DNA from: Bacteroidota bacterium
GTDB lineage: Bacteria > Bacteroidota > Bacteroidia > NS11-12g > UBA955
Direction: 5' to 3'
NCBI GenBank assembly: GCA_046301955.1
Contig: JBKCJE010000055.1
Span: 1-50,947, forward strand
Length of the DNA: 50,947 nucleotides
A program made the position numbers and the translations under genes. This document shows, one piece after another, positions 19,262 to 46,483 of the stretch. The notes below the pieces were generated by a model. It saw only the letters and a program-made list of their open reading frames with translations. It did not search any database and was not told where the DNA came from. Position 1 is the first letter of the stretch. Each line of letters starts with the position of its first letter.

Positions 19262-21126
19262 CAGGTTGGGTTACTTTTACTGGGGCTCCCAAAGATCAGA
19301 TGCAACAGGTGGGAGAGCGGCTCGCAACGGAACTATTACACCGTGGTCCAGATGGCTATGGGATTGAGATTTTTGGTGAAATGCAGGGCAATGCTTTGCT
19401 TGTGCATCGCAGATTGTCAATTCTGGGTTTGGGAGTTGCAGGTTCTCAGCCCATGCTTAGTAACGACGGTCGATATGCCATCAGTTTCAACGGCGAGATT
19501 TATAATTATCTCGAATTGGCGGCCGAATACGGCCTGTCTAATTTGTCTGGAACGGATACGGAAATTTTATTGCAATTGTGGCAATTGCAGGGCGTGTCGG
19601 TTGTTGCCCAACTCGATGGTTTTTTTGCCATCGCGATATGGGATAACCTTGAGAAAACGTTGACATTGGTCAGGGATAGAACCGGTGTAAAACCCATTTA
19701 TTACTCGTTGAATGGTCAGGGGTTTTGGTTTTGTTCCGAGGAGTTTGCGTTGCTCAAAGCCATGGAATTGGTGGGTGAAAAGACGGCGGTAAACATGGAT
19801 TCTTTGCAAGCGCATTTCTCGCGAGGCGATAGTGATAGCAGGGATTTGTATGAAGGTATAAAAACATTGGGGGCTGGTGAATGTCTCGTTTGGAGTGAGT
19901 TGGCTGGATTGGAAATAAATGCATGGCATTCGGGCGAATACATCTGTTTGGATGATGAGGCCTGGGTTCAACGATTGGGGCTGAAAGAAGCGCCTTCGAC
20001 GTATTCTGATTTGTTGAGAGCGCAACTCAAATGGTCTATGAATAGGCGTTTGCGCAGCGATGTCCCCCTGGGTTTTGCGGTGAGCGGCGGTCTGGATTCG
20101 GCGGCTTTGGTGGGTTTAGCAAGAGAATTGTTGGGAAAAGAAGCCCATCTTCATGTGTTTTCAGTGATTTCTCCGGGCAGTGAGGCGGATGAAAGTGAGT
20201 ATCAGAAGCAAGTAGTGGCAGCCGTAGGCGGTATTTGGCATACTGTGGATGTGGCTGATTTAGACGCCCATGATTTAGAGCGATATATTAGAACTACCCA
20301 TCGAATTCCCGTTGCATGGAACAATATTGCGCACTTTGCTTTGTGTGAGAAAGTTCAAGAGGCGGGGGTGAAAGTGTTGTTTAACGGACAAGGTGCTGAT
20401 GAATTGTTTGGGGGATACCCACACTATTACAAAGCCGCGTTTTGCTCGGAAATGGTCAGTTTATGGCCCCATAGAAAAAAATGGCCCATTGATTTTTTCT
20501 CAGCAGGAAAGCAGTGGTTCAAATATTGGTTGGGGATTTTCAAGGGTCAGAAATACATAGATTGTGCTGATGTGCTGATGCGGGCCGATTATTATGGTCC
20601 GCGATTAAACCAGCTGTTGCGATATGAGGACCGCAATGGGATGGCTTGTGGACTTGAATCTCGCAATCCCTTTGCGGATAATTGTCTGATGGCGGATGCT
20701 TGGTTAAATGCTTGGGCGGATGATACAAATCGTTTGGAGGGATCTTTGTCGTCGAAATTGGTGAATGGATATTCCAAGGGGTATTTGCGCAAAGCGGTGG
20801 AGGGACTGGTGCCCGAATCTGTTCTGTGGCGGATAGATAAAAAAGGCTTTACTGTTCCGGCAGGGTCCAAGACTTTGTCGGCGTTGTTTCATTGGGAAAA
20901 GTGGATTCTGTCTAGCCGTTTGGATGGTGTTTCCGAGCGCGGGCAGCGCCAAAAGGCGCTGGCCCGCGCTCGGAAAATCGCGCAATCAAACGAAATTTAT
21001 GCACAGAAAACCATCACGCATCACCAACTAACCCCCAAAGAAGATGCCCTGCTAGCCCAACTCTTCCGGTGGGCAGCCGTAGGCTGTTTTCTTGAAATTC
21101 TACACCCCAATTCACCCCAATCATGA
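19249..21126 (+). CDS. asnB: Asparagine synthase-like glutamine amidotransferase, probably for glycan amidation
   Basis: MCGIAG, HRGPD, HRRLSI, FNGEIYN, RDRTGVKP, SGGLDS, GQGADELFGG; lies between GT4 and flippase genes. Confidence 0.9.
   Translation: MCGIAGWVTFTGAPKDQMQQVGERLATELLHRGPDGYGIEIFGEMQGNALLVHRRLSILGLGVAGSQPMLSNDGRYAISFNGEIYNYLELAAEYGLSNLSGTDTEILLQLWQLQGVSVVAQLDGFFAIAIWDNLEKTLTLVRDRTGVKPIYYSLNGQGFWFCSEEFALLKAMELVGEKTAVNMDSLQAHFSRGDSDSRDLYEGIKTLGAGECLVWSELAGLEINAWHSGEYICLDDEAWVQRLGLKEAPSTYSDLLRAQLKWSMNRRLRSDVPLGFAVSGGLDSAALVGLARELLGKEAHLHVFSVISPGSEADESEYQKQVVAAVGGIWHTVDVADLDAHDLERYIRTTHRIPVAWNNIAHFALCEKVQEAGVKVLFNGQGADELFGGYPHYYKAAFCSEMVSLWPHRKKWPIDFFSAGKQWFKYWLGIFKGQKYIDCADVLMRADYYGPRLNQLLRYEDRNGMACGLESRNPFADNCLMADAWLNAWADDTNRLEGSLSSKLVNGYSKGYLRKAVEGLVPESVLWRIDKKGFTVPAGSKTLSALFHWEKWILSSRLDGVSERGQRQKALARARKIAQSNEIYAQKTITHHQLTPKEDALLAQLFRWAAVGCFLEILHPNSPQS
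20930..20976. repeat. Intragenic hairpin: 21-bp stem, one bulge, AAAA loop
   Basis: TTTCCGAGCGCGGGCAGCGCC-AAAA-GGCGCTGGCCCGCGCTCGGAAA within asnB. Confidence 0.9.
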
Positions 21127-22520
21127 GGCAAACCGACGGTGGACCCATAAAAACCTTCCTCTGGCAGTTGGCAAAAGCCATGCTCGCCGCCATAGTGGTG
21201 ATTGTCTACTCGAGGGGTATGGGTGCATACGGACGGGGAGCACTGTCTATTCTTCTGCTCAATCTGCAGTTGTTACTCATGGTGAGCGAACTCTTTGCAG
21301 GAGGCGCCCTGGCAAATTTGCTGTCGAAATATCCCGCAAAACGAATCCTACCCAGTGCGTGGCTCTTTTTGTTGTTGGTGCTTATCATTGGTTACGTTGT
21401 TGGTTGGTTTGGTTACGTACTGCCCAATCAAGGCAACTTGCCCCTGAATTTTGATCACCCCAATATCATCATTCTCAATTTGCTCTTCTTTCAGGGCTTG
21501 TTTCTGGGGTCTTTGGGGATTCAATTCAATATCTATCAAGCGAAAGGCTGGGTGCAGCAGCGCAACAAATTACAAGTGGCCTTAGAAGCACTGAAACTGT
21601 TGGGTGTTGCCTTGTGTTTTGAGGCTATGTACGGATTCGTTTTTCCCAGGATTGACGCAATAGAATTGTCCAGGAAATCAGCCATTCAAGTTCCCATCGA
21701 CCAAACCATCCATTATATTGGTGGGTTCAATGAAACAGCGGTGCTTTGGATCCTTGTGTACGCCTCCGGTCTGGTGTGTTTGGTTTCTTTGGGCGTTGTA
21801 TTGAAACAAACCGGCGGGGTGTCTACAAGTGGAAAAGACATCATCGGCGAGGACAATTCCATCCGGCCGCCCAAGGAAATGTTCTCCAGCGGGTTTATGT
21901 CGCAAATCGGACATATTTTGTTGTTTTTACTGTATCGCTTGCCCCTGTGGTGGATCGCCGCCGAGTTTGGCAATGCTGAAGCCGGGGTTTTGGCCAATGC
22001 GCTCCTAATGGCGGATACGATTTGGATTTTTGGCAACTCCTTCGGGACCATTTTGCATTCACGCATGCTGCGTTGGGGTGCGCGCAAATCGAAATTCGGA
22101 AAGTTGTTGGGTATGTATGTTTTGGTTTCTGGCTTGGGGACGTTGGTTGCCATCTTGATGGCTTTGCTGCTCCCGCCGTCACTCTATGTTTGGGTATTTG
22201 GCAGCACGTTCTTCGGTTTGAAAGAGACCTTTGCTTTAATATCGCCTGCCGTCTTGTTTTTGGGGCTTTCGGCGCCTATCGGACATTACCTTCACGCACA
22301 GAATCGGTTTAAAGAACTTATCGTAAGCTATGGATTGTCTGTATTGGTGCTATTTCTTTGCTGGCAGGGAGTGGATGTGTTTATTTCTCACGAGGCTATT
22401 GGATACCACAACAGTGAATCATTACAATTTATGGATCACGTTATGTTGAACGCTAGGCAACATTTTGGCAAATTGATGGCGGTGAATATGGCGTTTTTTG
22501 TCCTCTTATTGTCTAATTAA
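21123..22520 (+). CDS. Wzx-like polysaccharide flippase (MOP/MATE superfamily); frame continues past the TAA to 22601
   Basis: Many TM helices, SRGMGAYGRG, LLYRLPLWWI...GNAEAG, VFGSTF. Confidence 0.75.
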   Translation: MRQTDGGPIKTFLWQLAKAMLAAIVVIVYSRGMGAYGRGALSILLLNLQLLLMVSELFAGGALANLLSKYPAKRILPSAWLFLLLVLIIGYVVGWFGYVLPNQGNLPLNFDHPNIIILNLLFFQGLFLGSLGIQFNIYQAKGWVQQRNKLQVALEALKLLGVALCFEAMYGFVFPRIDAIELSRKSAIQVPIDQTIHYIGGFNETAVLWILVYASGLVCLVSLGVVLKQTGGVSTSGKDIIGEDNSIRPPKEMFSSGFMSQIGHILLFLLYRLPLWWIAAEFGNAEAGVLANALLMADTIWIFGNSFGTILHSRMLRWGARKSKFGKLLGMYVLVSGLGTLVAILMALLLPPSLYVWVFGSTFFGLKETFALISPAVLFLGLSAPIGHYLHAQNRFKELIVSYGLSVLVLFLCWQGVDVFISHEAIGYHNSESLQFMDHVMLNARQHFGKLMAVNMAFFVLLLSN

Positions 22521-22668
22521 TTGCAGGTGAGAAAAGATATTCAATGGCAAGGTATCTCTTTTGTTATGAGGTATTTCGGGCAGCGTCGATTGGCCAAATA
22601 AACGGCCCTTATTGTATACTATTTGGAACAATCCCCCCATCTGTTGAGTGAACTAAAAGGATAAGTCC

Positions 22669-22676
22669 TATTTTTG
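22669..22676 (+). promoter_or_regulatory. -7 element TATTTTTG for gdh-psd
   Basis: Exact consensus followed by an A-rich 27-nt stretch to ATG 22704. Confidence 0.6.
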
Positions 22677-22703
22677 CCTCACTTAACGTAATAACAGACC
22701 ATT

Positions 22704-23978
22704 ATGTCAACCCCTAACAACGGTGGAACTCCAAGATACAATCCGCTTGAGAGCATGCAGAGACGCTTCGATGAGGCGAAAGAGAAATTAGGATTGGACG
22801 ATCAATTTGCGAATGTTTTGCGTGTCCCCGATAAAGTGGTGGCAGCGAATATTCCAGTAACCATGGATGACGGCACGATTCGTGTTTTTGAAGCGTACCG
22901 CGTTGTTCACAGCGTGCATTTGGGTCCTTCAAAAGGCGGTATACGCTACAGTATGGATGTTCATTTGGACGAGGTGAAGGCCTTGGCTGCCTGGATGACA
23001 TGGAAGTGCGCGGTTGTAAACGTTCCTTATGGCGGTGCAAAAGGGGGTATAAAATGCGATCCACGCAGCATGAGCAAAGGTGAGTTGGAGCGTTTGACCC
23101 GTGGATATACCTTGGCGATGCGCAACGTATTCGGCCCAGACAAAGATATTCCTGCGCCCGATATGGGCACCAGCGCCCAAGAAATGGCCTGGATTGTGGA
23201 TGAGTTTTCAAAAATTTCTGGCCACACTGCCTATGCCGTAGTTACCGGCAAGCCCTTGGTTTTGGGCGGTAGCTTGGGTCGTGTTGAAGCAACAGGTCGT
23301 GGCGTGATGGTGAGCACCCGCAGTGCGATGGCGAAATTGGGTTTGAACCCAACCAGCACAACTTGTGTAGTGCAAGGTTTTGGTAATGTTGGAAGTATTT
23401 CAGCGAAATTGATCGCCCAGTTGGGTGTGAAAATTGTGGCCATCTCTGATGTGACTGGAGGATATTACAACCCAGAAGGAATTGATGTAAACGCTGCCAT
23501 CGCTTATGTAGCGAACAGCGAGAGCAGAAGTTTGGATGGTTATACTGGCGGAAGCAAAGTAACCAATGCTGAGCTGTTGGAGTTGCCATGCGATATTTTG
23601 GTGCCTGCTGCCATGGAAGATCAAATCACACCGGAGAATGCTTCGCGCATCAAGGCGAAAATGATTGTTGAAGGTGCTAACGGACCAACAACGGCTGAAG
23701 CCGATTCGATTTTGAACGAAAAAGGCATTTTGGTGGTTCCTGATATTTTGGCCAATGCTGGTGGTGTTACCGTTTCTTATTTTGAGTGGGTACAGAACCG
23801 TTTGGGTTACTATTGGACAGAAGAGCGTGTGAACCGTCGTGCAGACCGTGCGATGAAACAGGCGTTCGATAATGTATATGCTACTGCAGAGAAGTATGGA
23901 GTGAACATGCGTATCGCTGCTTACATCGTGGCTTTGGATAAAGTTGCGAGTACGTTGAAATTGAGAGGGTCTTTCTAA
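22704..23978 (+). CDS. gdhA: Glutamate dehydrogenase (Glu/Leu/Phe/Val family)
   Basis: GPSKGGIRY, MTWKCA, GGAKGG, DIPAPD, VVTGKP, QGFGNVG, EGANGP, NAGGVTVSYFEW. Confidence 0.95.
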   Translation: MSTPNNGGTPRYNPLESMQRRFDEAKEKLGLDDQFANVLRVPDKVVAANIPVTMDDGTIRVFEAYRVVHSVHLGPSKGGIRYSMDVHLDEVKALAAWMTWKCAVVNVPYGGAKGGIKCDPRSMSKGELERLTRGYTLAMRNVFGPDKDIPAPDMGTSAQEMAWIVDEFSKISGHTAYAVVTGKPLVLGGSLGRVEATGRGVMVSTRSAMAKLGLNPTSTTCVVQGFGNVGSISAKLIAQLGVKIVAISDVTGGYYNPEGIDVNAAIAYVANSESRSLDGYTGGSKVTNAELLELPCDILVPAAMEDQITPENASRIKAKMIVEGANGPTTAEADSILNEKGILVVPDILANAGGVTVSYFEWVQNRLGYYWTEERVNRRADRAMKQAFDNVYATAEKYGVNMRIAAYIVALDKVASTLKLRGSF

Positions 23979-23979
23979 G

Positions 23980-24630
23980 ATGAGGTTACACAGAGAAGGA
24001 TTTACCATCATATTTGTAACCACTTTGGTCTTGGCAATCTTGAACTTTGGTGTTCAATGGATGCTGGGCGAAGGTTTGGTCTCCCAGATTATTCTGGGAT
24101 TGTCGCTGTTTTTCTTTATCATGGTTGTGCAGTTTTTTCGCAACCCTTCAAGGACGACTCCAAAAGGCGAGGGTTTGATTATTGCGCCTGCCGATGGCAA
24201 AGTGGTGGTGATTGAAAACGTTGAAGAAGGAGAGTACTTTAAAGACCAGCGCAAACAAGTTTCGATTTTCATGTCGCCCGTGAATGTTCACGTGAACAGG
24301 GCGCCAGTTACCGGTAAGGTGTTGTATCAGAAATATTTTCCTGGAAAGTACTTGGTGGCATGGCATCCCAAAAGTAGCACGGAGAACGAGCGCACCACTG
24401 TGGTGATGGAGGAGAATGGGAAACAAATCTTATTCCGACAGATTGCCGGCGCATTGGCCCGTAGGATTGTGTGTTATGCAAAGCCCGGACAATCGTATGA
24501 AAAAGGCGATGAGTATGGATTCATCAAGTTTGGCTCTCGCATTGATTTGTATCTGCCGGTGGATGCTGAGATTTTAGTGGAATTAGACCAAAAAACTGTA
24601 GGGGGAGAGACCGTTATTGCCAAGTGGTAA
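23980..24630 (+). CDS. psd: Phosphatidylserine decarboxylase proenzyme (short type)
   Basis: FFRNP, APADGKVV, SIFMS..NVHVNRAP, ENER, QIAGALARRI, IKFGSR self-cleavage motif. Confidence 0.94.
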   Translation: MRLHREGFTIIFVTTLVLAILNFGVQWMLGEGLVSQIILGLSLFFFIMVVQFFRNPSRTTPKGEGLIIAPADGKVVVIENVEEGEYFKDQRKQVSIFMSPVNVHVNRAPVTGKVLYQKYFPGKYLVAWHPKSSTENERTTVVMEENGKQILFRQIAGALARRIVCYAKPGQSYEKGDEYGFIKFGSRIDLYLPVDAEILVELDQKTVGGETVIAKW

Positions 24631-24646
24631 TTTACATTTTGTTTTG

Positions 24647-24654
24647 TATCTTTG
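24647..24654 (+). promoter_or_regulatory. -7 element TATCTTTG
   Basis: Exact consensus 18 nt before ATG 24673. Confidence 0.65.
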
Positions 24655-24672
24655 TATTAATCGATAAAAATC

Positions 24673-25101
24673 ATGAAAAAAATCATTGCTTTTGGATTGT
24701 TGATTGCGGGATTTGCAATCGCTTCTCAGGCCCAAACTGCGGCCGAAACTGCCAATAATACACCTGCCATCGAAGTAGCACAGGTGGCTCCTGCCACTGC
24801 GGTTGCTCCAACCAAAGCCTGCTGCAAAAAAGAAGGTGCTGCTGCTGGATGCAGCAAAGCGGGTGCTGCCAACGGTGAAGTAAAGGCTTGTTGCAAGAAA
24901 GAAGGTTCAGCGGCTTCTGCTTCTGTATCTGCTCCCAAAGCGGCTTGCGCTGGTGCTTCTGCTGAGCATAAGTGTGGTGGCCATGGTGATGCCGCTGCTT
25001 CAGCATCTGCTGTTGCCGCTCCAATCGCTGCCCCTGGTGCTGCTCCCGTGAAGAAAGCATGCGCTGGTGCCGCGGAAGGTAAGCCTTGCTGCAAGAAGTA
25101 A
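24673..25101 (+). CDS. Secreted Ala/Lys/Cys-rich low-complexity protein
   Basis: Signal peptide MKKIIAFGLLIAGFAIASQA, KACCKKEG twice, terminal PCCKK, 10 Cys; has its own promoter and terminator. Confidence 0.8.
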   Translation: MKKIIAFGLLIAGFAIASQAQTAAETANNTPAIEVAQVAPATAVAPTKACCKKEGAAAGCSKAGAANGEVKACCKKEGSAASASVSAPKAACAGASAEHKCGGHGDAAASASAVAAPIAAPGAAPVKKACAGAAEGKPCCKK

Positions 25102-25130
25102 TCTTCTTGCCCTTTAATAGAAACAACCTG

Positions 25131-25172
25131 ATTTGGGTGTTTGCCAATTTGGTAGACACCCAAATTTATTTT
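25131..25172 (+). terminator. Intrinsic terminator
   Basis: ATTTGGGTGTTTGCCA / TGGTAGACACCCAAAT 16-bp stem (two G-U) followed by TTATTTT. Confidence 0.7.
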
Positions 25173-25231
25173 GGGGGAGGTGTGATATTCCCTCTGCCAT
25201 TTGGCTTCTGTGTTGTTCCTTTGTAGTTGCG

Positions 25232-26128
25232 ATGGACAAAGGATTTCGGAGAATCGCTTTCACGATCATGGGGCTTACAGCCTTAACGGTGATTTCGGTG
25301 GGTGTTTACCTATGGTACAATTTTAATGCCCGTAGCCGCTTGGTGCTTGTGGTGCCTTCAACGGCGCAGTGGTTTTTGCATGTACAAACGAAATTGTTGC
25401 GAGGCGATTTTTCAGCATCAACAACGGCCCCTGAAGGTATCGATGTGCTCAGAAAAACGGTAGCCGCATTGCCCATCTTTCAAGGGATGAAAGACGCTGG
25501 CGAACCTGGTATCGCCTTGTATTCAGATGTGGTGTCGTTTGGGATGCCGGAAGGACAATTTTTGGCCTTGTCGATTACTTCTGAAGAGAGGTTTAAAACG
25601 TTCATGAAATCGCTCAAAAAGCGAAATTTGCTGAAAGGCGGAATTGATAAGGGGCGATATTTCTATGCGGAATTTCCATCGGGGAAGGCGTATGTGGCTT
25701 TCAAATACAAGGCATTGGTAATTTTTAAACCGGGTGATTCTCGTTGTGATTACCATGTGGCGGAAAGCGCATTCGATCAAGTTTTTGCAGAGAAGACCCA
25801 CACGATGATGCAGAATTCAACGGTACAGGCATTGTACGAGGATGAGCCAGAGGTGGTGTTTTACTCATCAGCTCCGGCGTTTGGATTGTCGCAATCATTG
25901 GATTTTCCTACGATAAACAACGAGCAGGCGGTTAGTAGTTATGTGAAATTTGCCTACCCCGGAAAGAAGGGGGAATTACCTGTTTCTCCATTGATGTTGG
26001 TTGCCAAAGCGGGCTATCCCATAGAATTGGAGAAGAGTATCGACAAAGAAAATCGAATGACGGCCCAAACCGCTTTGGATTTGATGGCGAAAATATTGGA
26101 CTTAAAAATACGAGAAATAGCGAAATGA
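25232..26128 (+). CDS. Hypothetical membrane-anchored protein
   Basis: One N-terminal TM ([22 protein letters not shown]); ATGA overlap with the next gene; start refined from 25133. Confidence 0.65.
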
Positions 26129-27135
26129 ATATACAAGATCACCTTAAGGAACGGATCATGATCATCGATGGGGCCATGGGCACGATGATTCAAAAACACA
26201 AATTGTCGGAGGCCGATTATCGGGGCGAGCGGTTTGCCGATTTTGAGCATCCATTGCAGGGGAATAACGACTTGTTGGTGTTGACTCAGCCACAAATTAT
26301 TTTGGATATTCACAAGCAATTTTTGGCGGCGGGTGCGGATATTTTGGAGACCAATACGTTCAATGCCAATGCCATTTCGATGTTGGATTACCACATGGTG
26401 GATTTGGTGAAAGAATTGAATACGGCGGCGGCCGCGCTTGCGCTGGCCGCCGCCGCAGAATATACCGCCCTAGATCCCTCAAAACCGAGGTATGTGGCGG
26501 GTTCTATCGGACCTACCAACAAAACAGCCAGTCTATCGCCCGATGTCAATAACCCCGGGTACAGAGCGGTCTCTTTCGATGAACTCGTAACCTGTTATAC
26601 AGAACAAACCGAAGCCTTGCTCGATGCCGGTGTGCACCTGATTTTGGTGGAGACAGTGTTCGATACGCTCAATTGTAAAGCTGCCTTGTTTGCCATCAAT
26701 ACAGTGAAAGAACAGCGCGGCATTGATATCCCCGTGATGGTAAGCGGTACCATTACTGATAATTCAGGTAGAACGCTCAGCGGACAAACGGCGGAGGCTT
26801 TTTGGATTTCTATATCGCACGGAAACCTCATGAGTGTGGGCTTGAATTGTGCGTTAGGAGCGCCTCAAATGCGTCCGTTTATTGAAGAAATGGCCCGTGT
26901 AGCTTGGGTGCCGATTAGTTGTTATCCCAACGCCGGGTTGCCCAATGAATTTGGTGAGTACGATGATACCCCAGAAGGCATGGCCGCCGTTTTGGAGGAC
27001 TGGTGTAAGCTAGGGTGGGTGAATATTGTGGGTGGCTGCTGCGGTACCACACCCGATCATATTCGCGCCATCGCTCAAGCCGCTGCAAAATACCCGCCAA
27101 GGCCTATTCCTTCAGTTGCTCAAGTGTCGGTTTGA
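26125..27135 (+). CDS. metH: Homocysteine S-methyltransferase domain (N-terminal part of a split MetH)
   Basis: [63 protein letters not shown]; stops after the Hcy domain. Confidence 0.92.
26423..26455. repeat. Intragenic all-GC quasi-palindrome
   Basis: CGGCGGCGGCC-GCGC-TT-GCGC-T-GGCCGCCGCCG within metH-N. Confidence 0.75.
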
Positions 27136-27171
27136 CACTTCTAAAAACGATTTTTTTATCTTAAATCTCCG

Positions 27172-27179
27172 TATCTTTG
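27172..27179 (+). promoter_or_regulatory. -7 element TATCTTTG
   Basis: Exact consensus 10 nt before ATG 27190. Confidence 0.7.
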
Positions 27180-27189
27180 CACCATTATC

Positions 27190-28290: not shown

Positions 28291-28327
28291 TTGAAATTAC
28301 TTCCTCGGTTTGAGGAAAAAGAGATAG

Positions 28328-28362
28328 GGGGCGGCAATCGTGAGATTGCCGCCCCTTTTTTT
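28328..28362 (+). terminator. Intrinsic terminator
   Basis: GGGGCGGCAATC-GTGA-GATTGCCGCCCC followed by T7. Confidence 0.9.
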
Positions 28363-28364
28363 AT

Positions 28365-28372
28365 TAACTTCG
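28365..28372 (+). promoter_or_regulatory. -7 element TAACTTCG, 4 nt before ATG 28377
   Basis: Near-consensus, directly after a terminator, so the gene needs its own promoter. Confidence 0.6.
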
Positions 28373-28376
28373 CCAC

Positions 28377-31445: not shown

Positions 31446-33143
31446 TTAATTGGTTTTGATGTCCTGCAATCGCAACTGCAAATTCGTGCGTCCGTTGTAC
31501 GTATTCTCCTCGATGCAATAGCAAGCGTGGAAAATTTGCGCATCGGTAACGGAGGGCCAATGTTCTGCCAAGCCAAATCCAATGGAATCCATGGGGCCGT
31601 TGGGGGTTTGTACCTGCATCTTCAAGTGGCGATCCTTCAATATTTTGGCGGTTTGATTGGCTTTCAAATTGTTGCTTCGGAATACAGGAATCGAATTTCC
31701 GGGGCCGAAGGGCGAAAGTTGCTTCAGGATCTTCATCATGCCTGGTGTGATCATGGATGTTTCCATTTCCATGTCGTATTCTACCACTGGTACAAGGTCG
31801 TCCGCGGTAACAGACTCACGAACAATCGCTTCGAATTTGTCGGCAAATGCATCGAAATTCTCTACTTTAATGCTCAATCCCGCTGCGTATTTGTGTCCGC
31901 CAAACTGCTCAACCAATTCGCCACAGGCGCCGATGGCTTCATGAATGTCGAAGGTTTTGATACTGCGTGCACTGCCGGTAAGCATCCCATCGTTCAAGGA
32001 AAACACGATCGTGGGTTTATAGAATTGTTCCACCATGCGGGAGGCCACAATCCCTATGACTCCTTTCGACCAACCTTCGCCCTGCAATACCATGGAGTAT
32101 TTGCTCATAAGGCGGGGGCTGTTCTGAACCATATCTACTGCATCACGGGTGATGTCTGAGTCCAATTCTTTGCGTTCGTGGTTCCTTTCTGAGAGGACTT
32201 TTGCGTATTTCTTGGCAGTGTTATAGTCCTTTTCGATGAGCACTTTTACCGCTGCTTTGGCGTCAGCGATTCTGCCGGCGGCATTGATGCGGGGACCAAT
32301 ACCGAAGATGATGTCGGAGATGGTGTATTGCTCTTTTTTCGGACAGTCGTCTAACAAGGTTTGTAAACCGATACTAGGGTTCTCGTTGAGTTTTTTGAGT
32401 CCATAAAACGACAGTACGCGGTTTTCACCCCGGATGTCGACCAAGTCAGAAGCAATACTCACGGCCACCATGTCGAGATAGTCATAGACCATTTCGGTGG
32501 GCATGCCTTGTTTTTCGTTGTAGGCTTGAATGAGTTTGAATCCGATGCCAGCCCCTGAGAGTTCTTTGTAGGGATAGGTGCAATCACGGCGTTTTGGGTT
32601 GAGGATAGCGGCCGCTTTAGGCAGTGTATCGCCCGGTAAGTGGTGGTCGCAAATGATCATTTCCAGTCCCAGAGAATTGCCGTAATCGACCAATTCGTTT
32701 GAGCGGATACCACAATCGAGTGTGATGACCAAGGTGAATCCTTTCTCGGCAGCGTATTCAAGGCCGGCTCTACTAATGCCGTAACCTTCTTTGTAACGAT
32801 CGGGGATGTAGTATTCGATGTTTTGGTTGAACGACTTAAAATAGGAGTAGACAATGCTCACCGCTGTGGTGCCGTCAACATCGTAATCGCCATAAACCAA
32901 AATACCTTCTTGGTTGGTAACTGCCGTCTGAATTCTTTTGATGGCAACGTCCATATCCTTCATTTCGAAGGGGTTGTGCAAATCTTCAAGTTTGGGGCGA
33001 AAAAATTTCTCGGCTTTTTCGTAGGTGTCGATACCACGCTGTACCAAGATGGTGGAGATGTATGGGTTAACACGAATGCTTTCGGAGAGTTGCAAGACCT
33101 GTTCCTGATTGGGTAGAGGTTTTGCGCGCCAACGATATTCCAT
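31446..33143 (-). CDS. recJ: Single-stranded DNA exonuclease RecJ
   Basis: VYGDYDVDG, PDRYKEGYG, TLDCG, DHH, PRINAAGR, GSARS, GGHKYAAG, PFGPGN; start refined to ATG 33143. Confidence 0.97.
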   Translation of the reverse strand: MEYRWRAKPLPNQEQVLQLSESIRVNPYISTILVQRGIDTYEKAEKFFRPKLEDLHNPFEMKDMDVAIKRIQTAVTNQEGILVYGDYDVDGTTAVSIVYSYFKSFNQNIEYYIPDRYKEGYGISRAGLEYAAEKGFTLVITLDCGIRSNELVDYGNSLGLEMIICDHHLPGDTLPKAAAILNPKRRDCTYPYKELSGAGIGFKLIQAYNEKQGMPTEMVYDYLDMVAVSIASDLVDIRGENRVLSFYGLKKLNENPSIGLQTLLDDCPKKEQYTISDIIFGIGPRINAAGRIADAKAAVKVLIEKDYNTAKKYAKVLSERNHERKELDSDITRDAVDMVQNSPRLMSKYSMVLQGEGWSKGVIGIVASRMVEQFYKPTIVFSLNDGMLTGSARSIKTFDIHEAIGACGELVEQFGGHKYAAGLSIKVENFDAFADKFEAIVRESVTADDLVPVVEYDMEMETSMITPGMMKILKQLSPFGPGNSIPVFRSNNLKANQTAKILKDRHLKMQVQTPNGPMDSIGFGLAEHWPSVTDAQIFHACYCIEENTYNGRTNLQLRLQDIKTN

Positions 33144-33203
33144 AACTTTTGCAAAAATCGGCTTTTTTGAGCAGATAAACAACCCAAACTTCATCTGAAA
33201 TTG

Positions 33204-35434: not shown

Positions 35435-35444
35435 TTAGAAAACG

Positions 35445-35798
35445 ATGGAAGCATTTTTTCAAGGCATTGCCGATATGATCGCGCAATACGAACAACAGAA
35501 TATTTTGAACCTTATCTACTTGGTCGTCCTGATGATCTTCGTGGGTATAGAATTGATTTCACACGTACCGAGCGTGTTGCATACGCCTTTGATGAGTGGT
35601 GCAAACGCCATCCACGGGGTGGTATTGATTGGAGCCATCATTGTGATGGGCAATGCATCGCCAGACGATACACTTTCATTGGTGTTTGGTACATTGGCGG
35701 TATTTGTGGGAACCCTGAACGTAATTGGGGGTTTTGTGGTAACCGATCGCATGTTGGAAATGTTTAAGAAGAAGCCGAAAGGAGAAAAAGCATCATGA
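35445..35798 (+). CDS. pntAB: NAD(P) transhydrogenase alpha subunit part 2 (membrane)
   Basis: LHTPLMSGANAI, NVIGGFVVTDRMLEMF. Confidence 0.95.
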   Translation: MEAFFQGIADMIAQYEQQNILNLIYLVVLMIFVGIELISHVPSVLHTPLMSGANAIHGVVLIGAIIVMGNASPDDTLSLVFGTLAVFVGTLNVIGGFVVTDRMLEMFKKKPKGEKAS

Positions 35799-37222: not shown

Positions 37223-37262
37223 TCAAGCTCAATGATCATTTACCCAACTTAAATAATGCAAA

Positions 37263-39506: not shown

Positions 39507-39634
39507 TTTGACTACGTCTTTTCATTTAGATTTTGGGGATTTGCAATCTCTGTGGAGGATTTTGCCCGAGAGATTATTCCATTCAATCAATCGTTCAGTT
39601 GTTGGGGCGAATTTATTGTCGCGGAAGTTGGAAC

Positions 39635-39666
39635 AAAAAGAAGGGCCAGCGCTTTCGCGCTGGCCC
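39635..39666 (-). terminator. Intrinsic terminator of the large surface-protein gene
   Basis: GGGCCAGCGC-GAAA-GCGCTGGCCC followed by TTCTTTTT on the minus strand. Confidence 0.85.
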
Positions 39667-39702
39667 CTGAACCAAAAACCATATACTGTGAAAATATGGA
39701 TT

Positions 39703-42700
39703 TTATTTCTGTACTGTAATCTTTTTAGTTACTTGCTTGTCTCCTGACGTTACTTGTACCAAGTATACGCCGTTGCTCAAACCGTCAGTATTCAATACCA
39801 TCACACCTTCGTTGGCTACTGTTCTTGTGCTTACCATTTTGCCTTCAATGCTTATCACGTTTACAGTGATGTTCGCACCGAAAGTTTCTGTGGTAGCCAC
39901 TTTGATGTCGCCAGCCGTTGGGTTAGGGTAAACTGCTACACCCACAGATTGCAGATCTTTCACCGCAGCGCGGTTCATCACAATCTTTTTGGTCTTAGAG
40001 CATTCGCAACCGGTCTGACGTACAACGGCTTTCATGGTAACGGTGTATTCACCATCACTCTGCAAGTCGTAGTTTACAGCAGCGTTCACATCCTTCGACT
40101 TCATGGTTCCACCACCGGCGAATACCCATGTGTAGTCTACGTTGTTCTGACCGCCAGCAACACCATTGGAGTTTACAGGTTCAACCTTTACACCATGGAA
40201 GCTAAATCCATAGTCAGGAGTGGCCTGGAAGTCGCAAGTACGTGGAGATTCGTTGATTGTCACACGCTGTGTGATTGAATCGGCACATCCGCCAGCGATA
40301 TAAGCATACAATGTTACGTTGTAGCTGGTGGTTTGGATGATGTTGTACAACTTAGAAGGATCGCTGTTGTTAGAGTAGGTGTTGTCACCAAAATCCCAGT
40401 TGTAGCTGATATCGCCTTGGGGCCATGAAGTGTTGTTTACGAATACCACTTGGTCGCCCGCGCACACATCAGAGGCACTGAAGTTTGCTTTTGGCTGGGT
40501 CAATACACTTAAGTCTTTGGTGGTTACATCCGAACAACCATTATCCAAAGTTACCGACAATGTCACTGTCTTTGGACCCAAGTTGGTCCAGTTCTTTGAG
40601 GGAGATTTGGTCTTGCTGGTAGTGCCATCGCCGAAGTTCCATGTGTAGTTTGCGACTGCACCCGCTACATCCGCGGTGGTGTTGGTAAACTCAGTAGGCG
40701 TCAATGAACAAGCCGCTGTGTTGGTGAAGCCTGCCTTGGGCGATTCACGCACTTCAACCACTTTTACCATTGAATCCTTACAGCCGAATTCTGACAAAGC
40801 CACCAATTTTACGTTCTTCTTGCCAGGTTTTGAGAAGTTGTATGTAGGGGCTTCGTCGGTGCTTACACTACCGTTATCATCGAAGTTCCAGAAGCTACCC
40901 ACAAGTCCACTTCCAATGGTGGTTTGGTTGGTGAATGCATATACATCGTTGTCGCACACACCGCTCTTTTGGGTAAATTTGGCTACAGGCTTCTCGAATT
41001 GATACACCTTTTGGGTCAGTTTGGCCACACAACCATTCAAGTCCGCACTCAAGGTTACATTGTAAGTACCGGCTTTGTTGTATTTGTATTTGGCATCGGT
41101 GGTTGTTGCAGTTGCACCATTGCCGAAGTCCCAAGCCATTTTCGCGGTTAGAGGGTTGGTTTTGTTGGTGAAGATCAAGTCTTGACCCAAACAAGCATTG
41201 GCTTTGTCGAAGGCTACAGTTGGAATTGCATTCACCTCAATTTCATATGTTTTGGTGAATACGAAACCGTAGGGGAGGGTTTTTCCGGTCAAAGTTACTT
41301 TGAATTTGCCTGAACTTGGGAATTGGAATACTGGCTCAGGTGCGTTTGAAGTATCAGCAGCGTTTCCTGTTCCAAAGTTCCAGAAGAATTCCATCGCACC
41401 AGAAAGAACTGTTGAAGTATTGGTGAACAAAACCTCGTCGCCGTTACAAATTTTTGTTGGATAGGTAAAGTCAGGGTTGATTGAAGGGTAAATCAATACA
41501 CGACGTCTGATAAAAGTATCACAACCATTGTTGTTGTCAGTTACTTTCAACACAACACTGATCAAACTGTCTTCCAATCCGGCATCCGCAGTTTTGAATT
41601 GAACCTCTAAATTGGTAGAACCACTTGGAGGGGTTAATGTGGCACCAGAAACAGCACGACCTGAAGCGGTGTATGCTTGAACGGTTGCATACCAATCGCT
41701 TGGAGAAGAAGTTCCATAAGTACTGTTGCTGTATACACGGGGTGCGCGAACATCGTAAATCACGGGCTGATTGATCACGGTGATGTCGTTTGGTTTCCCG
41801 CGCTGATAAATTGCTGTGTTTGGCGTAGTGGTCTTCGTAGAGAATTCATAGAATCCACCACCGGGTGCAGGCTTAACAAGTGTATTGAAAGAGAAGGTGT
41901 CGTTCTTGGTGTTGTCATCTGGGATATCCAAATAAATCTTCACAGAAGTCTGACCGGCTACTTCTAATACTACGGGTGTTTTAAACTTGTATTGCAGTGA
42001 ATCACCGGGTAAAATACGCTGGGTAACCAACTCGCGGGTTGCCTTGCCGTTGATGCTGAAAGCAACAAAGAAGTTGTAAATGGTATCAACAAAAGTATTT
42101 TTAATGGTGATGTCGGCCATTGACTCGTGTCCAGCGCATACGCTACTAGCCAAAGAGTAAGATGTTTTTGTGGCCGCGATGTCCATATAGTTTTCCAAAG
42201 CTCCGCGATCACTTCTGCCCAAGTTTCGGGTATTATTCTTCAAATCTTGTGTGATGGTTGCGCTTGTGGGTTTGTTGTTTTGGGTTTCGAATGCGTTAGA
42301 ACGCATATCAAGTTTGGCAAAATCAACCCATTGTGGATCGGTGTAGTTGTCAGATGACCCAACTTTAACATCGCCCTTGTAACCGTTGTAATTGTTATAG
42401 TTTGATGTTCCAACACGCCACAATTGAGTCGCACCTGTTGCATTAACCAACCAGGAGTTAAAGTTTACAGACTGAATGTTATTCGCAGAATTTGAATTCA
42501 AATAACCAGGGTAGATGTAGTAGTTCGATGTTGCATCCAGTATATTTCCTTCAAAAGTGAAACGAGAATTCATTTCTTGGAACAAATAACCATAGCAGAA
42601 GTGATACAGATAACTTGAGTGTCGGGTGTGGATGGTGTTTTCACGAATATCCGCTGTCCAACCAGAGTTGAAATTGTAGGAGTAGATGTTATAGTTCGAG

Positions 42701-44199
42701 AAATATCCATAGTTGTTGGCAATCAAGTTGTTGTTGAAAGTCAAGTTGTTTGGGTAGTAAATCAACCAACCATACCAAAGTCCTGTAGTGCTACCACCAC
42801 GGTTGTTGGTAAAGCTGTTGCGTGATGCGCGCATTGAACCCATGAAATACAGATAGGTTGTATACATGTTTCCAGATGCAGAGTTACTGTCAACGCGGTT
42901 ATCTTCCCACACATTTAAGCTACGAACAGAGTTGTAATTGTACCAGTTGTAGAAAAGGTAGGCGGTACCGCTTGTTCCTACAGTGTGAAAACTATTGTTT
43001 GTAATTCGGTTGTTAATGATGTTATTGTCATAACAGTAGTACATCCAGTGCATGTAGTTGGTGGAGGTAGTATACGTTTGATTTTTGTCAATTACGTTGT
43101 TTTGAAAGTTTATGCAGTAAGCATAATACAAATAGGCATGGTAGAACTGCGAGTAGGCCACAATGTTGCGGGTTGTGTTACCATCAAATGTGTATGGGTT
43201 TGTTGCACTTCCGTAATTGTACCAACCGAACAATGTGTAGTAGGTGTTGATGTAGTTCGAAGTTGAACTCGCCGAAGCACCCGAGTATGGCATGTCGTGG
43301 AAGTTGTTCCCTTTGTACGATGTAGAGCGGTTGGTTCCGTATGTGTAGTAGGTCCAGATGCCATACAAAGTGGTGTTGCAAGGGCTGCTGCTGCTTGCAC
43401 CCAAACGACTGATATCGTTGTTGATGAACTGTTCCCCGTTGGTGTAGCGGTTGTAAATCGCGTAGAAGAAGAAGTTCCGGATGGTGTTGCCCTCAAACGT
43501 ATTGTTGTTCGCAGTGCTCGTGTAAAACGATACACTTTGTTGGTCGATAATACCGAAAGTTGGACCAGGAGCGTTGCTGTTGGTGGTCCTCATGGTACAG
43601 TTTCTGATGGTGTTAAACGATCCATTTTGTCCCGTTGTGGTAGAGGTTAAACTTGTTGCTGATGAAGCAAATGCGATGTAGGCACCTCCGGCAGTTGAAG
43701 AGGAAGTTTGTGCCGTGAACTCAATGGTGAGACCGTTCAATGTGTTGTAGTCCGATGCATTGCTAAAACGAATCCCTGTTTGTGCAGTACCTGTACCTGT
43801 TTTTTGAATGGTCAAATTGGTCATGGTGATGTAGTCGGCACCGTTGAAGTTGATAGCCTCGTTGGTGGAAGACGACGATAAGCGCTTGCCATTTCCATCG
43901 ATGGTGATGGTGTTGGTTGAGGAGGTTCCTGTAATGGCATTAAACGTTACCACGCTGGCGGTGGTTTCGTCTGTCATCACGGTTACACGAACTGGGCCAT
44001 TTACTCCACTTGTGCCAATGGCAGAGGCGAAGGCCGACCAAGAAGCATAGTTTGAGCCACTCGTGGTTTTTGTTGCGTCGATGGTGTAGTTACCGCTCAA
44101 TTGGGCTTGAACGAAACCTGCCATGCAACTCAACATGAACAACAAGCCAAATTTGGAAAATCGGCTGTTGCGAACAATTGGTTTGTAGTGTGTTATCAT
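39703..44199 (-). CDS. Large T9SS-secreted surface protein: parallel beta-helix, multiple PKD domains, CTD (about 1498 aa)
   Basis: Signal ending VQA-Q then LSGNYTID, beta-helix repeats (ITIDGNG, FEGNTIRN, NNLIANN), five W[DN]F[GD] PKD motifs, VYPNPT...NGVYLVQV; start refined to ATG 44199. Confidence 0.88.
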   Translation of the reverse strand: MITHYKPIVRNSRFSKFGLLFMLSCMAGFVQAQLSGNYTIDATKTTSGSNYASWSAFASAIGTSGVNGPVRVTVMTDETTASVVTFNAITGTSSTNTITIDGNGKRLSSSSTNEAINFNGADYITMTNLTIQKTGTGTAQTGIRFSNASDYNTLNGLTIEFTAQTSSSTAGGAYIAFASSATSLTSTTTGQNGSFNTIRNCTMRTTNSNAPGPTFGIIDQQSVSFYTSTANNNTFEGNTIRNFFFYAIYNRYTNGEQFINNDISRLGASSSSPCNTTLYGIWTYYTYGTNRSTSYKGNNFHDMPYSGASASSTSNYINTYYTLFGWYNYGSATNPYTFDGNTTRNIVAYSQFYHAYLYYAYCINFQNNVIDKNQTYTTSTNYMHWMYYCYDNNIINNRITNNSFHTVGTSGTAYLFYNWYNYNSVRSLNVWEDNRVDSNSASGNMYTTYLYFMGSMRASRNSFTNNRGGSTTGLWYGWLIYYPNNLTFNNNLIANNYGYFSNYNIYSYNFNSGWTADIRENTIHTRHSSYLYHFCYGYLFQEMNSRFTFEGNILDATSNYYIYPGYLNSNSANNIQSVNFNSWLVNATGATQLWRVGTSNYNNYNGYKGDVKVGSSDNYTDPQWVDFAKLDMRSNAFETQNNKPTSATITQDLKNNTRNLGRSDRGALENYMDIAATKTSYSLASSVCAGHESMADITIKNTFVDTIYNFFVAFSINGKATRELVTQRILPGDSLQYKFKTPVVLEVAGQTSVKIYLDIPDDNTKNDTFSFNTLVKPAPGGGFYEFSTKTTTPNTAIYQRGKPNDITVINQPVIYDVRAPRVYSNSTYGTSSPSDWYATVQAYTASGRAVSGATLTPPSGSTNLEVQFKTADAGLEDSLISVVLKVTDNNNGCDTFIRRRVLIYPSINPDFTYPTKICNGDEVLFTNTSTVLSGAMEFFWNFGTGNAADTSNAPEPVFQFPSSGKFKVTLTGKTLPYGFVFTKTYEIEVNAIPTVAFDKANACLGQDLIFTNKTNPLTAKMAWDFGNGATATTTDAKYKYNKAGTYNVTLSADLNGCVAKLTQKVYQFEKPVAKFTQKSGVCDNDVYAFTNQTTIGSGLVGSFWNFDDNGSVSTDEAPTYNFSKPGKKNVKLVALSEFGCKDSMVKVVEVRESPKAGFTNTAACSLTPTEFTNTTADVAGAVANYTWNFGDGTTSKTKSPSKNWTNLGPKTVTLSVTLDNGCSDVTTKDLSVLTQPKANFSASDVCAGDQVVFVNNTSWPQGDISYNWDFGDNTYSNNSDPSKLYNIIQTTSYNVTLYAYIAGGCADSITQRVTINESPRTCDFQATPDYGFSFHGVKVEPVNSNGVAGGQNNVDYTWVFAGGGTMKSKDVNAAVNYDLQSDGEYTVTMKAVVRQTGCECSKTKKIVMNRAAVKDLQSVGVAVYPNPTAGDIKVATTETFGANITVNVISIEGKMVSTRTVANEGVMVLNTDGLSNGVYLVQVTSGDKQVTKKITVQK

Positions 44200-44249
44200 A
44201 TGTGTTAGTATTGGTTCTATTGGAATGCAGTTTGAAAACCGCATCTCAA

Positions 44250-44257
44250 CAAAAGTA
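44250..44257 (-). promoter_or_regulatory. -7 element TACTTTTG for the large surface protein
   Basis: Exact consensus in an AT-rich intergenic region. Confidence 0.6.
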
Positions 44258-44431
44258 TCGTATACACATTTGTCGGAGTAGTGTCATTGAAAAAGACCAT
44301 TAGGTTATGGAAATTCACCATAGCACTACTAAAAAATATAATTACAAGTGGATAGTACTGAAATAATTGAGCGTTTGACCCAATGATGTTGAGAATGCGA
44401 ATGAAAGAGAAAAATCCCCTCCCAAAAGGGG

Positions 44432-46483
44432 TTAATCGATCAGTCTACAACTGTCGAGCGCAATCTCAAGTGCCTGATCAATTGTGTTCACGGGTGGCAT
44501 GCAATGCTGTCCGCTGCAAATCACGATGTGTTTGGGCGATGCAGTTTCTGCAAATTCCACCAAAGCCCAGGAGGGAAGGTGTTTCATGAGCGATAATACT
44601 TCGGCATCATTCCAGGAGTCACTTGAGCCCGCGTAAAATGTAACATGGCATCCACCAAGCGTTTGGGCTTGTGCGAGTTTGCACCAGTGGAAATACCAAC
44701 CCGGACTGTTGGTCATCGTTTTGGAAACTTGGGCGATGAGGGTGTAGGACAATTCGGTGAATGTTGTATTGTGATGATACTGTCCCAGTTGATACAATGC
44801 TGTTGCTAAAGATGCATTGGGGGAAGGTGTTACATCGTCGTTTAAGTCGCTCTTTCGGTAGAAAAGCTGTTCTCCATTGTTGGGCGTGAATGCCAGTTGT
44901 TGGGTGTTGTTGTCATAGAAGAGTTCAATGGCGCGATTCAACAGGATTTCGGCTTTGGTTAGGTATTCTTTGTTTCGGCTGATGCGATATAGGGCGATGA
45001 GCGCTTCGCAGAAGTAGGCATAGTCTTCCAAGAACCCGGTGATGCGCGTATTTCCATTTCGGTGTATGCGTTGGAGGTTTTGGCCGTCCCAGAATGTGTC
45101 CCAGGCCCAATCGGCCGCCGCGGCGGCCGATTGGGCCTGATTCGCGCTTTGCAGATAAAAGCCGGCGTCCGCCATGGCTTTTATCTGCAAAGCGTTCCAA
45201 CTACAAATTGCCTTGTCGTCAAACCCCGGCCTGATCCGCGTGTCCTGATAACGCCTCAACGATTCTTTGATTCGCGATAACCCCGATAAATAGTCGCTGG
45301 CCGACATCCCCATTGCTTCCATCACCTGCAAAGGCGCCATCGGTTGATGCAAAATGTTGTATCCATGCTCCCAATTGCCCTCCAACTTCAATCCAAACTG
45401 CACCGTAGCCAAGGCCATATCTTCCTCCGATAGCAACGTCTCCAACTCGTGCTGCGTAAAGACATAGAATTTGCCCTCCATCCCCTCGCTATCCGCATCC
45501 AACGCACTACCAAATCCCGGTGTACCATCGCCCAAACTCAACTCTCGTTCGCAAAAACGCAAACACTCCTCCGCAATCGTCTTGTATAACGGCGCGTCTG
45601 ACCAAGCAAACGCACGGGCATACAGTGATATCAACTGCGCATTGTCGTACAGCATCTTCTCAAAATGCGGCGCAAACCACAACGCATCGGTGCTATACCG
45701 ACAGAATCCGCCGCGCAACACATCGTAAATACCGCCGTGGCTCATCTTCAACAAACTCAAGTGCAAATAGTCTTTGGCCGCTTCTCCCTCGGTGAGTAAA
45801 TGGTGGTCTAGGATAAATTCGTACTGACCCGGCAACGGAAACTTGGGTGCCCGATTGGGTCCGCCTTCCTGCCAGTCTAACTGATCAGCCAATGTGTCAA
45901 ACATACCCAGCAAATCCTGTCTGCTCACGCGATCCCCGGCTTGCCATTGGTTGATCTGCTGTATTTTTTCCTGAATGCGTTGGGCATATTCAACGGCCTT
46001 TTCGGGTTCTGTCTTGTATACATCGGCCAACTGCAATATTACCTGCTGCCATTGTGCCTTGGGAAAGTAGGTTCCGGCGTAAATGGGCTGCATATTCGGC
46101 AAGCAAATCACGTTTAAGGGCCATCCGCCCCTGCCTGTCATGATCTGACAAGCATCCATGTAAATCATGTCGATATCAGGTCGTTCCTCGCGATCCACCT
46201 TGATGCTCACCAAATGCAAATTCATGATTTCAGCGGTTTCAAAGTCCTCAAAACTCTCGTGTTCCATCACATGACACCAATGACACGTGCTGTAGCCAAT
46301 GCTCACCAATACCAATTTGTTCTCCGCCTTAGCTTGTGACCAAGCCGCATCGCCCCATTCTTGCCAATCCACAGGGTTGTGGGCGTGTTGCAACAAATAC
46401 GGACTGTTCGCCTGGATCAGTCGGTTGGGTTCGTTTGATCCTTGTTGAGAAGCGTTTGGGTTTTGGGTGTTTGGGTGCGACAT
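44432..46483 (-). CDS. YyaL/SSP411-like thioredoxin-domain protein (DUF255)
   Basis: NRL...[52 protein letters not shown]. Confidence 0.94.
45102..45139. repeat. Perfect 38-bp GC-rich palindrome inside a CDS
   Basis: CAGGCCCAATCGGCCGCCG|CGGCGGCCGATTGGGCCTG. Confidence 0.95.

What the first reader, a model, noticed from the sequence alone, without database searches (positions are those of the whole stretch)
20881..45760. Candidate undescribed system: intragenic GC hairpins marking local reversals of strand skew
Seen: three unrelated genes on both strands (asnB 20930, metH-N 26423, yyaL 45102) contain a long GC-rich hairpin. At each, the + strand, elsewhere G/T-rich regardless of gene direction, becomes C/A-rich for some hundreds of bp without any change of gene or frame. 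The effect is strong at asnB and yyaL and weak at metH. On either strand the pattern reads G/T-rich, hairpin, C/A-rich. The hairpins share structure but not sequence. Inference: recurrent site-specific mutational asymmetry. One model is cruciform cleavage and resection exposing 3' single strands to C>T and A>G deamination, which gives this polarity. Alternatives are fork stalling/restart sites or structure-defined DNA processing sites.
Basis: partly seen in the sequence, partly recalled or inferred. Interest (0 to 1): 0.72.

Follow-up and report, generated by a model that had tools for sequence, protein, structure and literature searches.

The report
Coding DNA hairpins with mutation halos
In a freshwater bacterium, dozens of unrelated GC-rich hairpin-forming sequences are written into protein-coding genes, and the DNA strand upstream of each is enriched in G for about 0.7 kb, likely because copying stalls at the folded hairpin and the gap is filled in a biased way; I found no published description of such a footprint.

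Summary
All 22 scored strong intragenic hairpins show the G/T-then-C/A step (about 14 standard errors), 22 of the 24 sharpest steps sit on hairpins, and the halo fades over about 0.7 kb whatever the gene or fork direction. Independent contigs bridge two of the three sites, and relatives keep all three hairpins, so it is not an assembly join. The hairpins are DNA-type: C-GNA-G loops number 43 in genes against 1-4 in codon shuffles. Best reading (0.45): the hairpin blocks a DNA polymerase, and the single-stranded gap is filled with bias, possibly by the second DnaE and DinB, found in 18 and 17 of 18 hairpin-rich congeners and in neither hairpin-poor one (a single evolutionary split). Rivals: a Chi-like nuclease stop, or cutting by a clade-specific Mre11/Rad50-like pair. 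No mechanism was shown. The scan noted related halos on other genomes, mostly around repeat families; I did not check them.

The parts
20930..20976 (.). GC-rich hairpin inside asnB (codons 560-575)
   Evidence: kept with compensating changes in G012, G001, G008; bridged by contigs of 4 of 4 runs
20530..20929 (+). 5' halo of the + strand hairpin, G/T-rich at third positions (+0.42)
20977..21376 (-). 5' halo of the - strand hairpin (+ strand C/A-rich, -0.21); crosses from asnB into the next gene
21074..21086 (+). short C-GTA-G mini-hairpin (5-bp stem) inside asnB; contribution not separable
26423..26455 (.). GC-rich hairpin inside metH-N (codons 99-110), weak step
   Evidence: kept in G012, G001, G008, not found in 7 other congeners read; bridged in 4 of 4 runs
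26223..26655 (.). short halos round the metH-N hairpin (+0.41/-0.11 over 200 bp)
45102..45139 (.). perfect 38-bp palindrome inside yyaL
   Evidence: kept in 5 congeners
   Evidence: both-arm change in relatives
44502..45101 (+). 5' halo on the + strand at yyaL (+0.36 over 600 bp)
45195..45794 (-). 5' halo on the - strand at yyaL (+ strand -0.29 over 600 bp)
18090..18124 (.). intragenic hairpin in a glycosyltransferase gene, conserved as a structure through amino-acid changes but with no step here (counter-example)
19249..21126 (+). asnB-like host gene
26125..27135 (+). metH N-terminal-domain host gene
44432..46483 (-). yyaL (DUF255) host gene
31446..33194 (-). recJ, 5'-3' exonuclease; candidate gap-widening enzyme, link inferred
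   Evidence: TIGR00644 above cut-off

Best explanation
Unrelated GC-rich hairpin sequences inside genes each carry a roughly 0.7-kb G-rich halo on the 5' side of the strand predicted to fold, likely because the folded hairpin stalls the replicative DNA polymerase reading that strand, leaving the template beyond it single-stranded until the gap is filled, possibly by the error-prone second DnaE and DinB. Shown: the halo, its polarity and length, its independence of gene and fork direction, its one-sidedness at one-strand hairpins, the excess of DNA-type loops, conservation of pairing. Inferred: folding in vivo, the stall, the gap, widening by RecJ/RecQ, and which polymerase fills it. A perfect inverted repeat acts on both strands and so gives the mirror-image step. 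Arm-to-arm template switching at stalls would perfect and keep the stems, so selection may not be needed.
For: One-strand hairpins (tandem G.A pairs): +0.176 on their own 5' flank (p 7e-6), +0.028 on the other side, paired p 0.002, n=25 of 26 found; controls with other 2x2 mismatches (n=187) or other loops (n=23) show 0.01-0.04. Left effect tracks top-strand energy (0.013+-0.006), right effect bottom-strand energy (0.013+-0.005), n=398. Antisense copies work as well as sense (0.25, n=10; 0.14, n=13). Dose response with stem strength. The antisymmetric part of the spectrum resembles the replichore contrast, plus a GC gain of 0.051. A second DnaE occurs in 18 of 20 congeners and DinB (whole or in pieces) in 17 of 20; both are missing from the two hairpin-poor genomes, and the one read, G011, has UmuC/UmuD instead. 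A second hairpin-rich genus has them too (second DnaE 3 of 4, DinB-like 2 of 2). RecJ, RecQ and RecO are present; AddB/RecBCD were not found. Yeast precedent: PMC3874155 (abstract).
Against: The halo is equal on leading and lagging templates (ln G/A +0.66 vs +0.64; 0.171 n=16 vs 0.184 n=9), whereas hairpins should fold mainly on the lagging template. Divergence is not raised in the flanks (0.31-0.45 vs 0.34-0.51 far away, six pairs). Short perfect GNA stems do not favour the GNA strand (0.042 vs 0.091, n=52, p 0.18), and 26 G.T-containing stems show nothing. The inserted G.A-type hairpin in the sister clade's yyaL is two-sided, strongest 3'. A second DnaE is common in hairpin-poor genera (46 of 61 genomes have two or more matches), the genus contrast is one split, and this assembly's copy has an in-frame stop. 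Template switching does not explain the excess of G.A-mismatch hairpins (23 vs 0-7).
Confidence: 0.45

Rival explanations
1. Chi-like recombination signal: the hairpin stops 3'-to-5' exonucleases on single-stranded DNA (resected ends or DNA taken up from outside), so the strand 5' of it survives and recombines; damage or biased heteroduplex repair leaves G/T, and hairpin-bearing alleles spread.
For: Same polarity and one-sidedness; no dependence on fork direction; explains the 20-fold loop excess, low synonymous change inside hairpins (0.08-0.32), the GC gain and no rise in divergence; only GNA triloops resisted a 3' exonuclease (PMC13037366, passages); ComEC present.
Against: No AddB or RecBCD found; weak strand preference (17 of 26 on the G/T-rich strand); ComEC is also in G011, which lacks clear halos; recombination may be too rare to match the replichore amplitude (my inference); no recombination data.
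Confidence: 0.25
2. A clade-specific Mre11/Rad50-like pair cuts at the hairpins: either both strands of a cruciform followed by resection, or a nick opposite the hairpin followed by 5'-to-3' excision.
For: An SbcD-like gene and an 813-aa Rad50-like neighbour lie on contig C126; found in 15 of 20 congeners, in neither hairpin-poor genome, and in 0 of 140 other genomes of the order. E. coli SbcCD cuts cruciforms (PMC4787754, abstract); yeast inverted repeats mutate flanks after breakage (PMC3681665, abstract).
Against: One-sided halos exclude two-ended breaks at those sites. Not found in genus g16 (0 of 4) or G009 and G014, which have the hairpins. 52 distinct loci (549 kb) with distant homologues show no step, and two lie beside BREX-type genes. 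Cut sites should be purged, not enriched.
Confidence: 0.13
3. The hairpins are priming sites, and the first few hundred bases after the primer are made with a different error spectrum.
For: Same polarity if the bias comes from the new strand; mini-hairpins occur at phage G4 and ssiA priming sites (PMC13037366, section 4).
Against: Priming shortens template exposure, which would give the opposite sign under the usual deamination model (PMC10030826, passages); equal action on the leading template needs frequent repriming.
Confidence: 0.08
4. Transcription effect: hairpins pause or end transcripts from both directions and the non-template strand mutates.
For: Intergenic terminator-like hairpins of -20 or better also step (0.20+-0.04, n=28).
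Against: Independent of gene strand; antisense one-strand hairpins work; loops are DNA-type (69 of 122 triloops); equally strong intergenic hairpins in G011 give 0.01+-0.06 (n=12).
Confidence: 0.05
5. Artefact: assembly joins, codon composition or decayed long palindromes.
For: Logan contigs of 4 of 4 runs break at the 38-bp yyaL palindrome; 10 of 224 GC-rich hairpins lie within 60 bp of contig ends.
Against: asnB and metH sites are bridged in 4 of 4 runs; yyaL is continuous with both hairpins in 5 other species; skew is codon-corrected; flanks are not mirror complements (0.253 vs 0.244-0.255).
Confidence: 0.01

Closest known systems
Hairpin-stall mutagenesis by Pol zeta/Rev1 in yeast (PMC3874155, abstract read)
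   Same: short hairpins stall the replicative polymerase; an error-prone polymerase and template switching take over
   Different: laboratory mutants of a eukaryote; here a genome-wide, fixed compositional halo in a bacterium, with enriched and conserved hairpins; the stall is not shown here
Chi sites of RecBCD/AddAB (PMC2887965, passages read)
   Same: polar, strand-specific signal inside genes; the strand 5' of it is left single-stranded
   Different: Chi is a fixed 5-8-base sequence read by RecBCD/AddAB; here a structure, and AddB/RecBCD were not found
Coding palindromes of Nematomorpha mitochondria (PMC6649704, abstract start and passages read)
   Same: inverted repeats inside protein-coding sequence, kept perfect as the protein changes; conversion proposed
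   Different: up to 284 bp, mitochondrial; the word 'skew' does not occur in its main text; here 15-70 bp with DNA-type loops and halos
SbcCD cleavage of palindromes and flank mutagenesis at inverted repeats (PMC4787754, PMC3681665, abstracts read)
   Same: structure-defined sites, same polarity expected from resection
   Different: long repeats and two-ended breaks; one-sided halos here argue against it
GCGNAGC mini-hairpins at phage origins and N4 promoters (PMC13037366, passages and section 4 read)
   Same: the same C-GNA-G loops
   Different: single dedicated sites in phages and plasmids; no halo described in what I read
DGR target hairpin (PMC3240598, abstract read)
   Same: stem structure matters more than its sequence; changed bases lie upstream of the hairpin
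   Different: needs a reverse transcriptase and template repeat and changes only A; no RT found
REP/MITE hairpin repeats with RAYT transposases (recalled, not read)
   Same: the G.A-type core recurs 12 times, and one copy arrived by in-frame insertion in a sister clade
   Different: most hairpins share no sequence and arose by substitutions; no Y1 transposase found

Membership tests
Chi/RecBCD-AddAB | RecBCD or AddAB encoded | tested here: not met
   two UvrD-family and one PD-(D/E)xK protein only, no AddB partner, in G000, G011, G018; G000 is 93% complete
Chi/RecBCD-AddAB | one short fixed sequence | tested here: not met
   loop motifs without a stem give 0.00-0.03; the effect needs pairing; no exhaustive k-mer scan was run
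Chi/RecBCD-AddAB | polar action on the strand's 5' side | tested here: met
   as a compositional halo only
Chi/RecBCD-AddAB | raised recombination beside the site | not testable with these tools
   only contigs, truncated variant lists
SbcCD palindrome breakage | SbcC and SbcD encoded | tested here: inconclusive
   Mre11-type motifs and Rad50-type ATPase motifs, but below every NCBIfam cut-off and no CxxC hook
SbcCD palindrome breakage | two-ended break, both flanks affected | tested here: not met
   one-sided at one-strand hairpins; two-sided at perfect repeats
Hairpin-stall translesion mutagenesis | error-prone polymerase encoded | tested here: met
   DinB above NF002677 cut-off; second DnaE below NF004225 cut-off and with an in-frame stop in this assembly
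Hairpin-stall translesion mutagenesis | polymerase pausing at the hairpin | not testable with these tools
   needs biochemistry or gap mapping
Hairpin-stall translesion mutagenesis | raised mutation rate in the flank | tested here: inconclusive
   no rise seen at three sites; small counts, partly saturated
REP/RAYT repeats | sequence family and Y1 transposase | tested here: not met
   48 of 53 sites with a G011 orthologue align without gaps; few cross-matches; PF01797 in 0 of 5 genomes
DGR | reverse transcriptase | tested here: not met
   PF00078 in 0 of 5 genomes
Structured RNA / terminator | Rfam match or sense-strand dependence | tested here: not met
   only a tRNA in the window; antisense copies active

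The most novel reading that the evidence does not exclude
A structure-coded, Chi-like signal: this lineage, in which AddAB and RecBCD were not found, writes exonuclease-resistant DNA mini-hairpins into its codons as selected or self-spreading landmarks that set the 3' end of recombining single strands, read by the acquired Mre11/Rad50-like pair or by RecJ/RecQ, with the halo recording each landmark's use.
Probability: 0.22. Interest if true: 0.92.

Novelty: categorically new. Interest (0 to 1): 0.77.

Why it matters
Bacterial strand skew is read as a chromosome-scale product of replication. Here a local DNA structure overrides it within single genes, at roughly one site per 30 kb. The halo is a record, readable from sequence alone, of where one strand is left unpaired, and the one-strand hairpins give a built-in control for which strand acts. 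It makes two open questions testable in any genome: whether short DNA hairpins fold and block enzymes in living bacteria, and what marks recombination ends in lineages without Chi. It also shows DNA-level constraint shaping codons and amino acids. The label 'categorically new' is for the element class and footprint; the chemistry in the best explanation is known from yeast.

Tried and rejected
Mirror complementarity of flanks: none. Repeat family or insertion origin for most hairpins: rejected. RT, Y1 transposase, stand-alone GIY-YIG: not found. Uracil glycosylase loss: present in 5 of 5. Genes lost from G000 relative to G011: 121 of 143 candidates scanned; the only replication or repair hits were UmuC/UmuD and FtsK, the latter in a missing block. 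Of 422 G000 proteins without a G011 orthologue I annotated only a handful, so other clade genes may matter. The Mre11/Rad50-like pair was my lead until. G009's low loop count as support for it was dropped because G004 has the pair and a similar count. DNA ends could not be mapped: all runs were contigs. Variant lists were cut by the tool, so no polymorphism test. Halos in genus g16 and genome-wide in other hairpin-rich congeners were not measured; no DNA of g16 was read beyond short pattern matches. Ten literature searches found no description of the footprint; the library lacks most subscription papers, and one paper on fork deamination was not held. No supplements were read.
Full report
Setting. 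The window is contig C55 of a 2.16-Mb, 163-contig, 93%-complete genome. Type IX secretion tails and DnaK hits place it in Bacteroidota; the runs that hold it are mostly river and lake samples. I called 1,835 genes with my own model, folded the genome as DNA, and measured keto skew (G+T against C+A) at third codon positions, corrected for codon family.

The observation. The three hairpins are there, yyaL has two in tandem, and the steps have the stated relative strength. Genome-wide, 20 of 20 scored intragenic hairpins of -20 kcal/mol or better step from G/T to C/A. A second gene caller gives 22 of 22, mean 0.447 against a null sd of 0.15, and 9 of 9 hold with both flanks inside one gene. The step shrinks with stem strength and vanishes for stems weaker than about -13. 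In reverse, 22 of 24 steps with z>=4.5 and 49 of 88 with z>=3.5 carry a hairpin, against 0 of 2 and 4 of 59 opposite steps and 6.4% of random places. I widened that hairpin definition after seeing the data; the control uses the same one. Over 69 sites the halo is 0.21 at 0-150 bp, about 0.11 at 400-600, 0.07 at 800-1000 and about 0.01 beyond 1.6 kb. It does not depend on gene strand or on replichore orientation, which I inferred from contig skew.

Not an artefact. Contigs of 4 of 4 runs bridge the asnB and metH hairpins with no joints. None of 4 runs bridges the 38-bp yyaL palindrome, as short-word assembly graphs would be expected to do (my knowledge); no foreign sequence joins there, and five other species have the gene intact with both hairpins. 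Flanks are not mirror images.

What the hairpins are. Of 122 GC-rich triloop hairpins, 69 have a C-GNA-G loop, with all four middle bases. Genes hold 43 against 1-4 in eight codon shuffles. GNA is the loop that forms the exonuclease-resistant DNA mini-hairpin (PMC13037366). They are not a repeat family: 48 of 53 sites with an orthologue align without gaps. Synonymous change inside the three window hairpins is 0.08-0.32 against 0.34-0.51 far away, with both-arm and even amino-acid-changing substitutions keeping the pairing. Selection or arm-to-arm conversion could each do this.

Natural experiment. A sister clade lacks the yyaL pair but has an in-frame inserted hairpin about 110 codons upstream. 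The same codons 360-425 read +0.08 to +0.45 in the seven genomes of this clade and -0.34 to -0.47 in the nine of the sister clade. The skew follows the hairpin, and there the hairpin came by insertion.

The deciding test. A subclass has tandem G.A pairs in the stem and is predicted to fold on one strand only (23 in genes against 0-7 in ten shuffles). Its halo is +0.176 on its own 5' flank and +0.028 on the other side (n=25, paired p 0.002); mismatch and loop controls are flat; sense and antisense, leading and lagging copies all work. Across 398 hairpins each side follows its own strand's energy. So each strand acts alone, and something moving 3'-to-5' along it, a polymerase reading it or an exonuclease eating it, likely stops at the hairpin. 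Against a strict rule: short perfect GNA stems show no such preference, G.T-containing stems show nothing, and the inserted yyaL copy, which has a longer outer stem, is two-sided.

Spectrum. On the 5' flank strand at fourfold sites G gains 0.109, C loses 0.058, A loses 0.046 and T is unchanged (se 0.006, n=5,102). The antisymmetric part is 1.0-1.3 times the replichore contrast; the 0.051 GC gain is extra. Polarised changes in yyaL shift as expected for A/G but not clearly for C/T, on small counts, and total rates are not raised.

Distribution. A GC-flanked GNA pattern occurs 31-63 times in 16 of 20 congeners, 12 and 15 times in two, 2 and 3 times in G011 and G017, and 19-41 times in all 4 genomes of genus g16; most other genera sampled show no excess. 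In G011 (1.886 Mb read) step scores are symmetric, strong intergenic hairpins give 0.01 and the few strong genic ones 0.15 (n=3) and 0.04 (n=4), so the effect is weak or absent. No step appeared in 72 of 80 distant loci long enough to test, 400 kb of the sister family or 52 metagenome loci, but these hold few strong hairpins, so power is low. The genome-wide halo is shown for G000 only.

Candidate machinery. AddB and RecBCD were not found; RecJ, RecQ, RecO, RecG, PriA and MutS/L are present (several assigned through G011 orthologues). An Mre11/Rad50-like pair is confined to this clade but missing from g16, and its distant homologues have no halos. A second DnaE and DinB match the hairpin-rich genomes in both genera but are widespread in hairpin-poor ones, so at most necessary. 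The strongest step in the genome lies inside the second dnaE itself. All genus-level matches rest on one split.

Verdict. I put 0.45 on stall-and-biased-fill, 0.25 on a Chi-like nuclease stop, 0.13 on cutting by the pair, 0.08 on priming, 0.05 on transcription. It works like yeast hairpin-stall mutagenesis or like Chi, and is a member of neither. Ten searches found no description. Earlier notes of this scan report halos round repeat families in other genomes, two with the opposite polarity; they are unchecked, and my polymerase reading was noted before I saw the one that agrees. What this case adds is unrelated hairpins written into codons and the one-strand test.

Noticed in passing
window 17040-17714: folE (GTP cyclohydrolase I) is split by an in-frame stop at 17484-17486; G011 reads through at that codon, so a recent nonsense change or consensus error.
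   Followed up: partly
G000:C6:10969-14172: Second dnaE with an in-frame TAA between two hairpins; other congeners show no stop in their matches. It holds the strongest skew step in the genome.
   Followed up: partly
G000:C126:1746-5311 (L277): Mre11-like plus hook-less Rad50-like pair below all family cut-offs, limited to this clade within the order sample; SbcD-like protein 99% identical in G012 where yyaL is 89%; distant homologues sometimes sit beside BREX and dynamin genes (L284, L308).
   Followed up: partly
L008-L018, yyaL near codon 321: In-frame insertion of variable length in the sister clade: tandem 18-bp units plus a G.A-type hairpin, partly deleted in G004 and G009, which keep the downstream skew.
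   Followed up: yes
G000:C6:31727-34189 and C31:9758-11635: priA carries two and mutL one of the halo-bearing hairpins.
   Followed up: no
window 14122-16147: Lycopene cyclase and beta-carotene dioxygenase (retinal synthesis), absent from G011; no rhodopsin gene seen in the window.
   Followed up: no
window 24673-25101: 142-aa secreted Ala/Cys/Lys-rich protein with repeated CCKK motifs and no Pfam hit.
   Followed up: no
window 20778-20866 and 47094-47121: Clusters of 5-6 differences from other populations within 30-90 bp, like imported recombination tracts; one lies just 5' of the asnB hairpin, but such clusters also occur elsewhere.
   Followed up: no
G011 versus G000: The hairpin-poor clade has lower GC at fourfold sites (0.42 vs 0.53), half the replichore skew, and UmuC/UmuD in place of DinB and the second DnaE.
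   Followed up: partly
G000 contig ends (C64:1-40, C118:1-65, others): 10 of 224 GC-rich hairpins lie within 60 bp of a contig end, probably assembly breaks.
   Followed up: no
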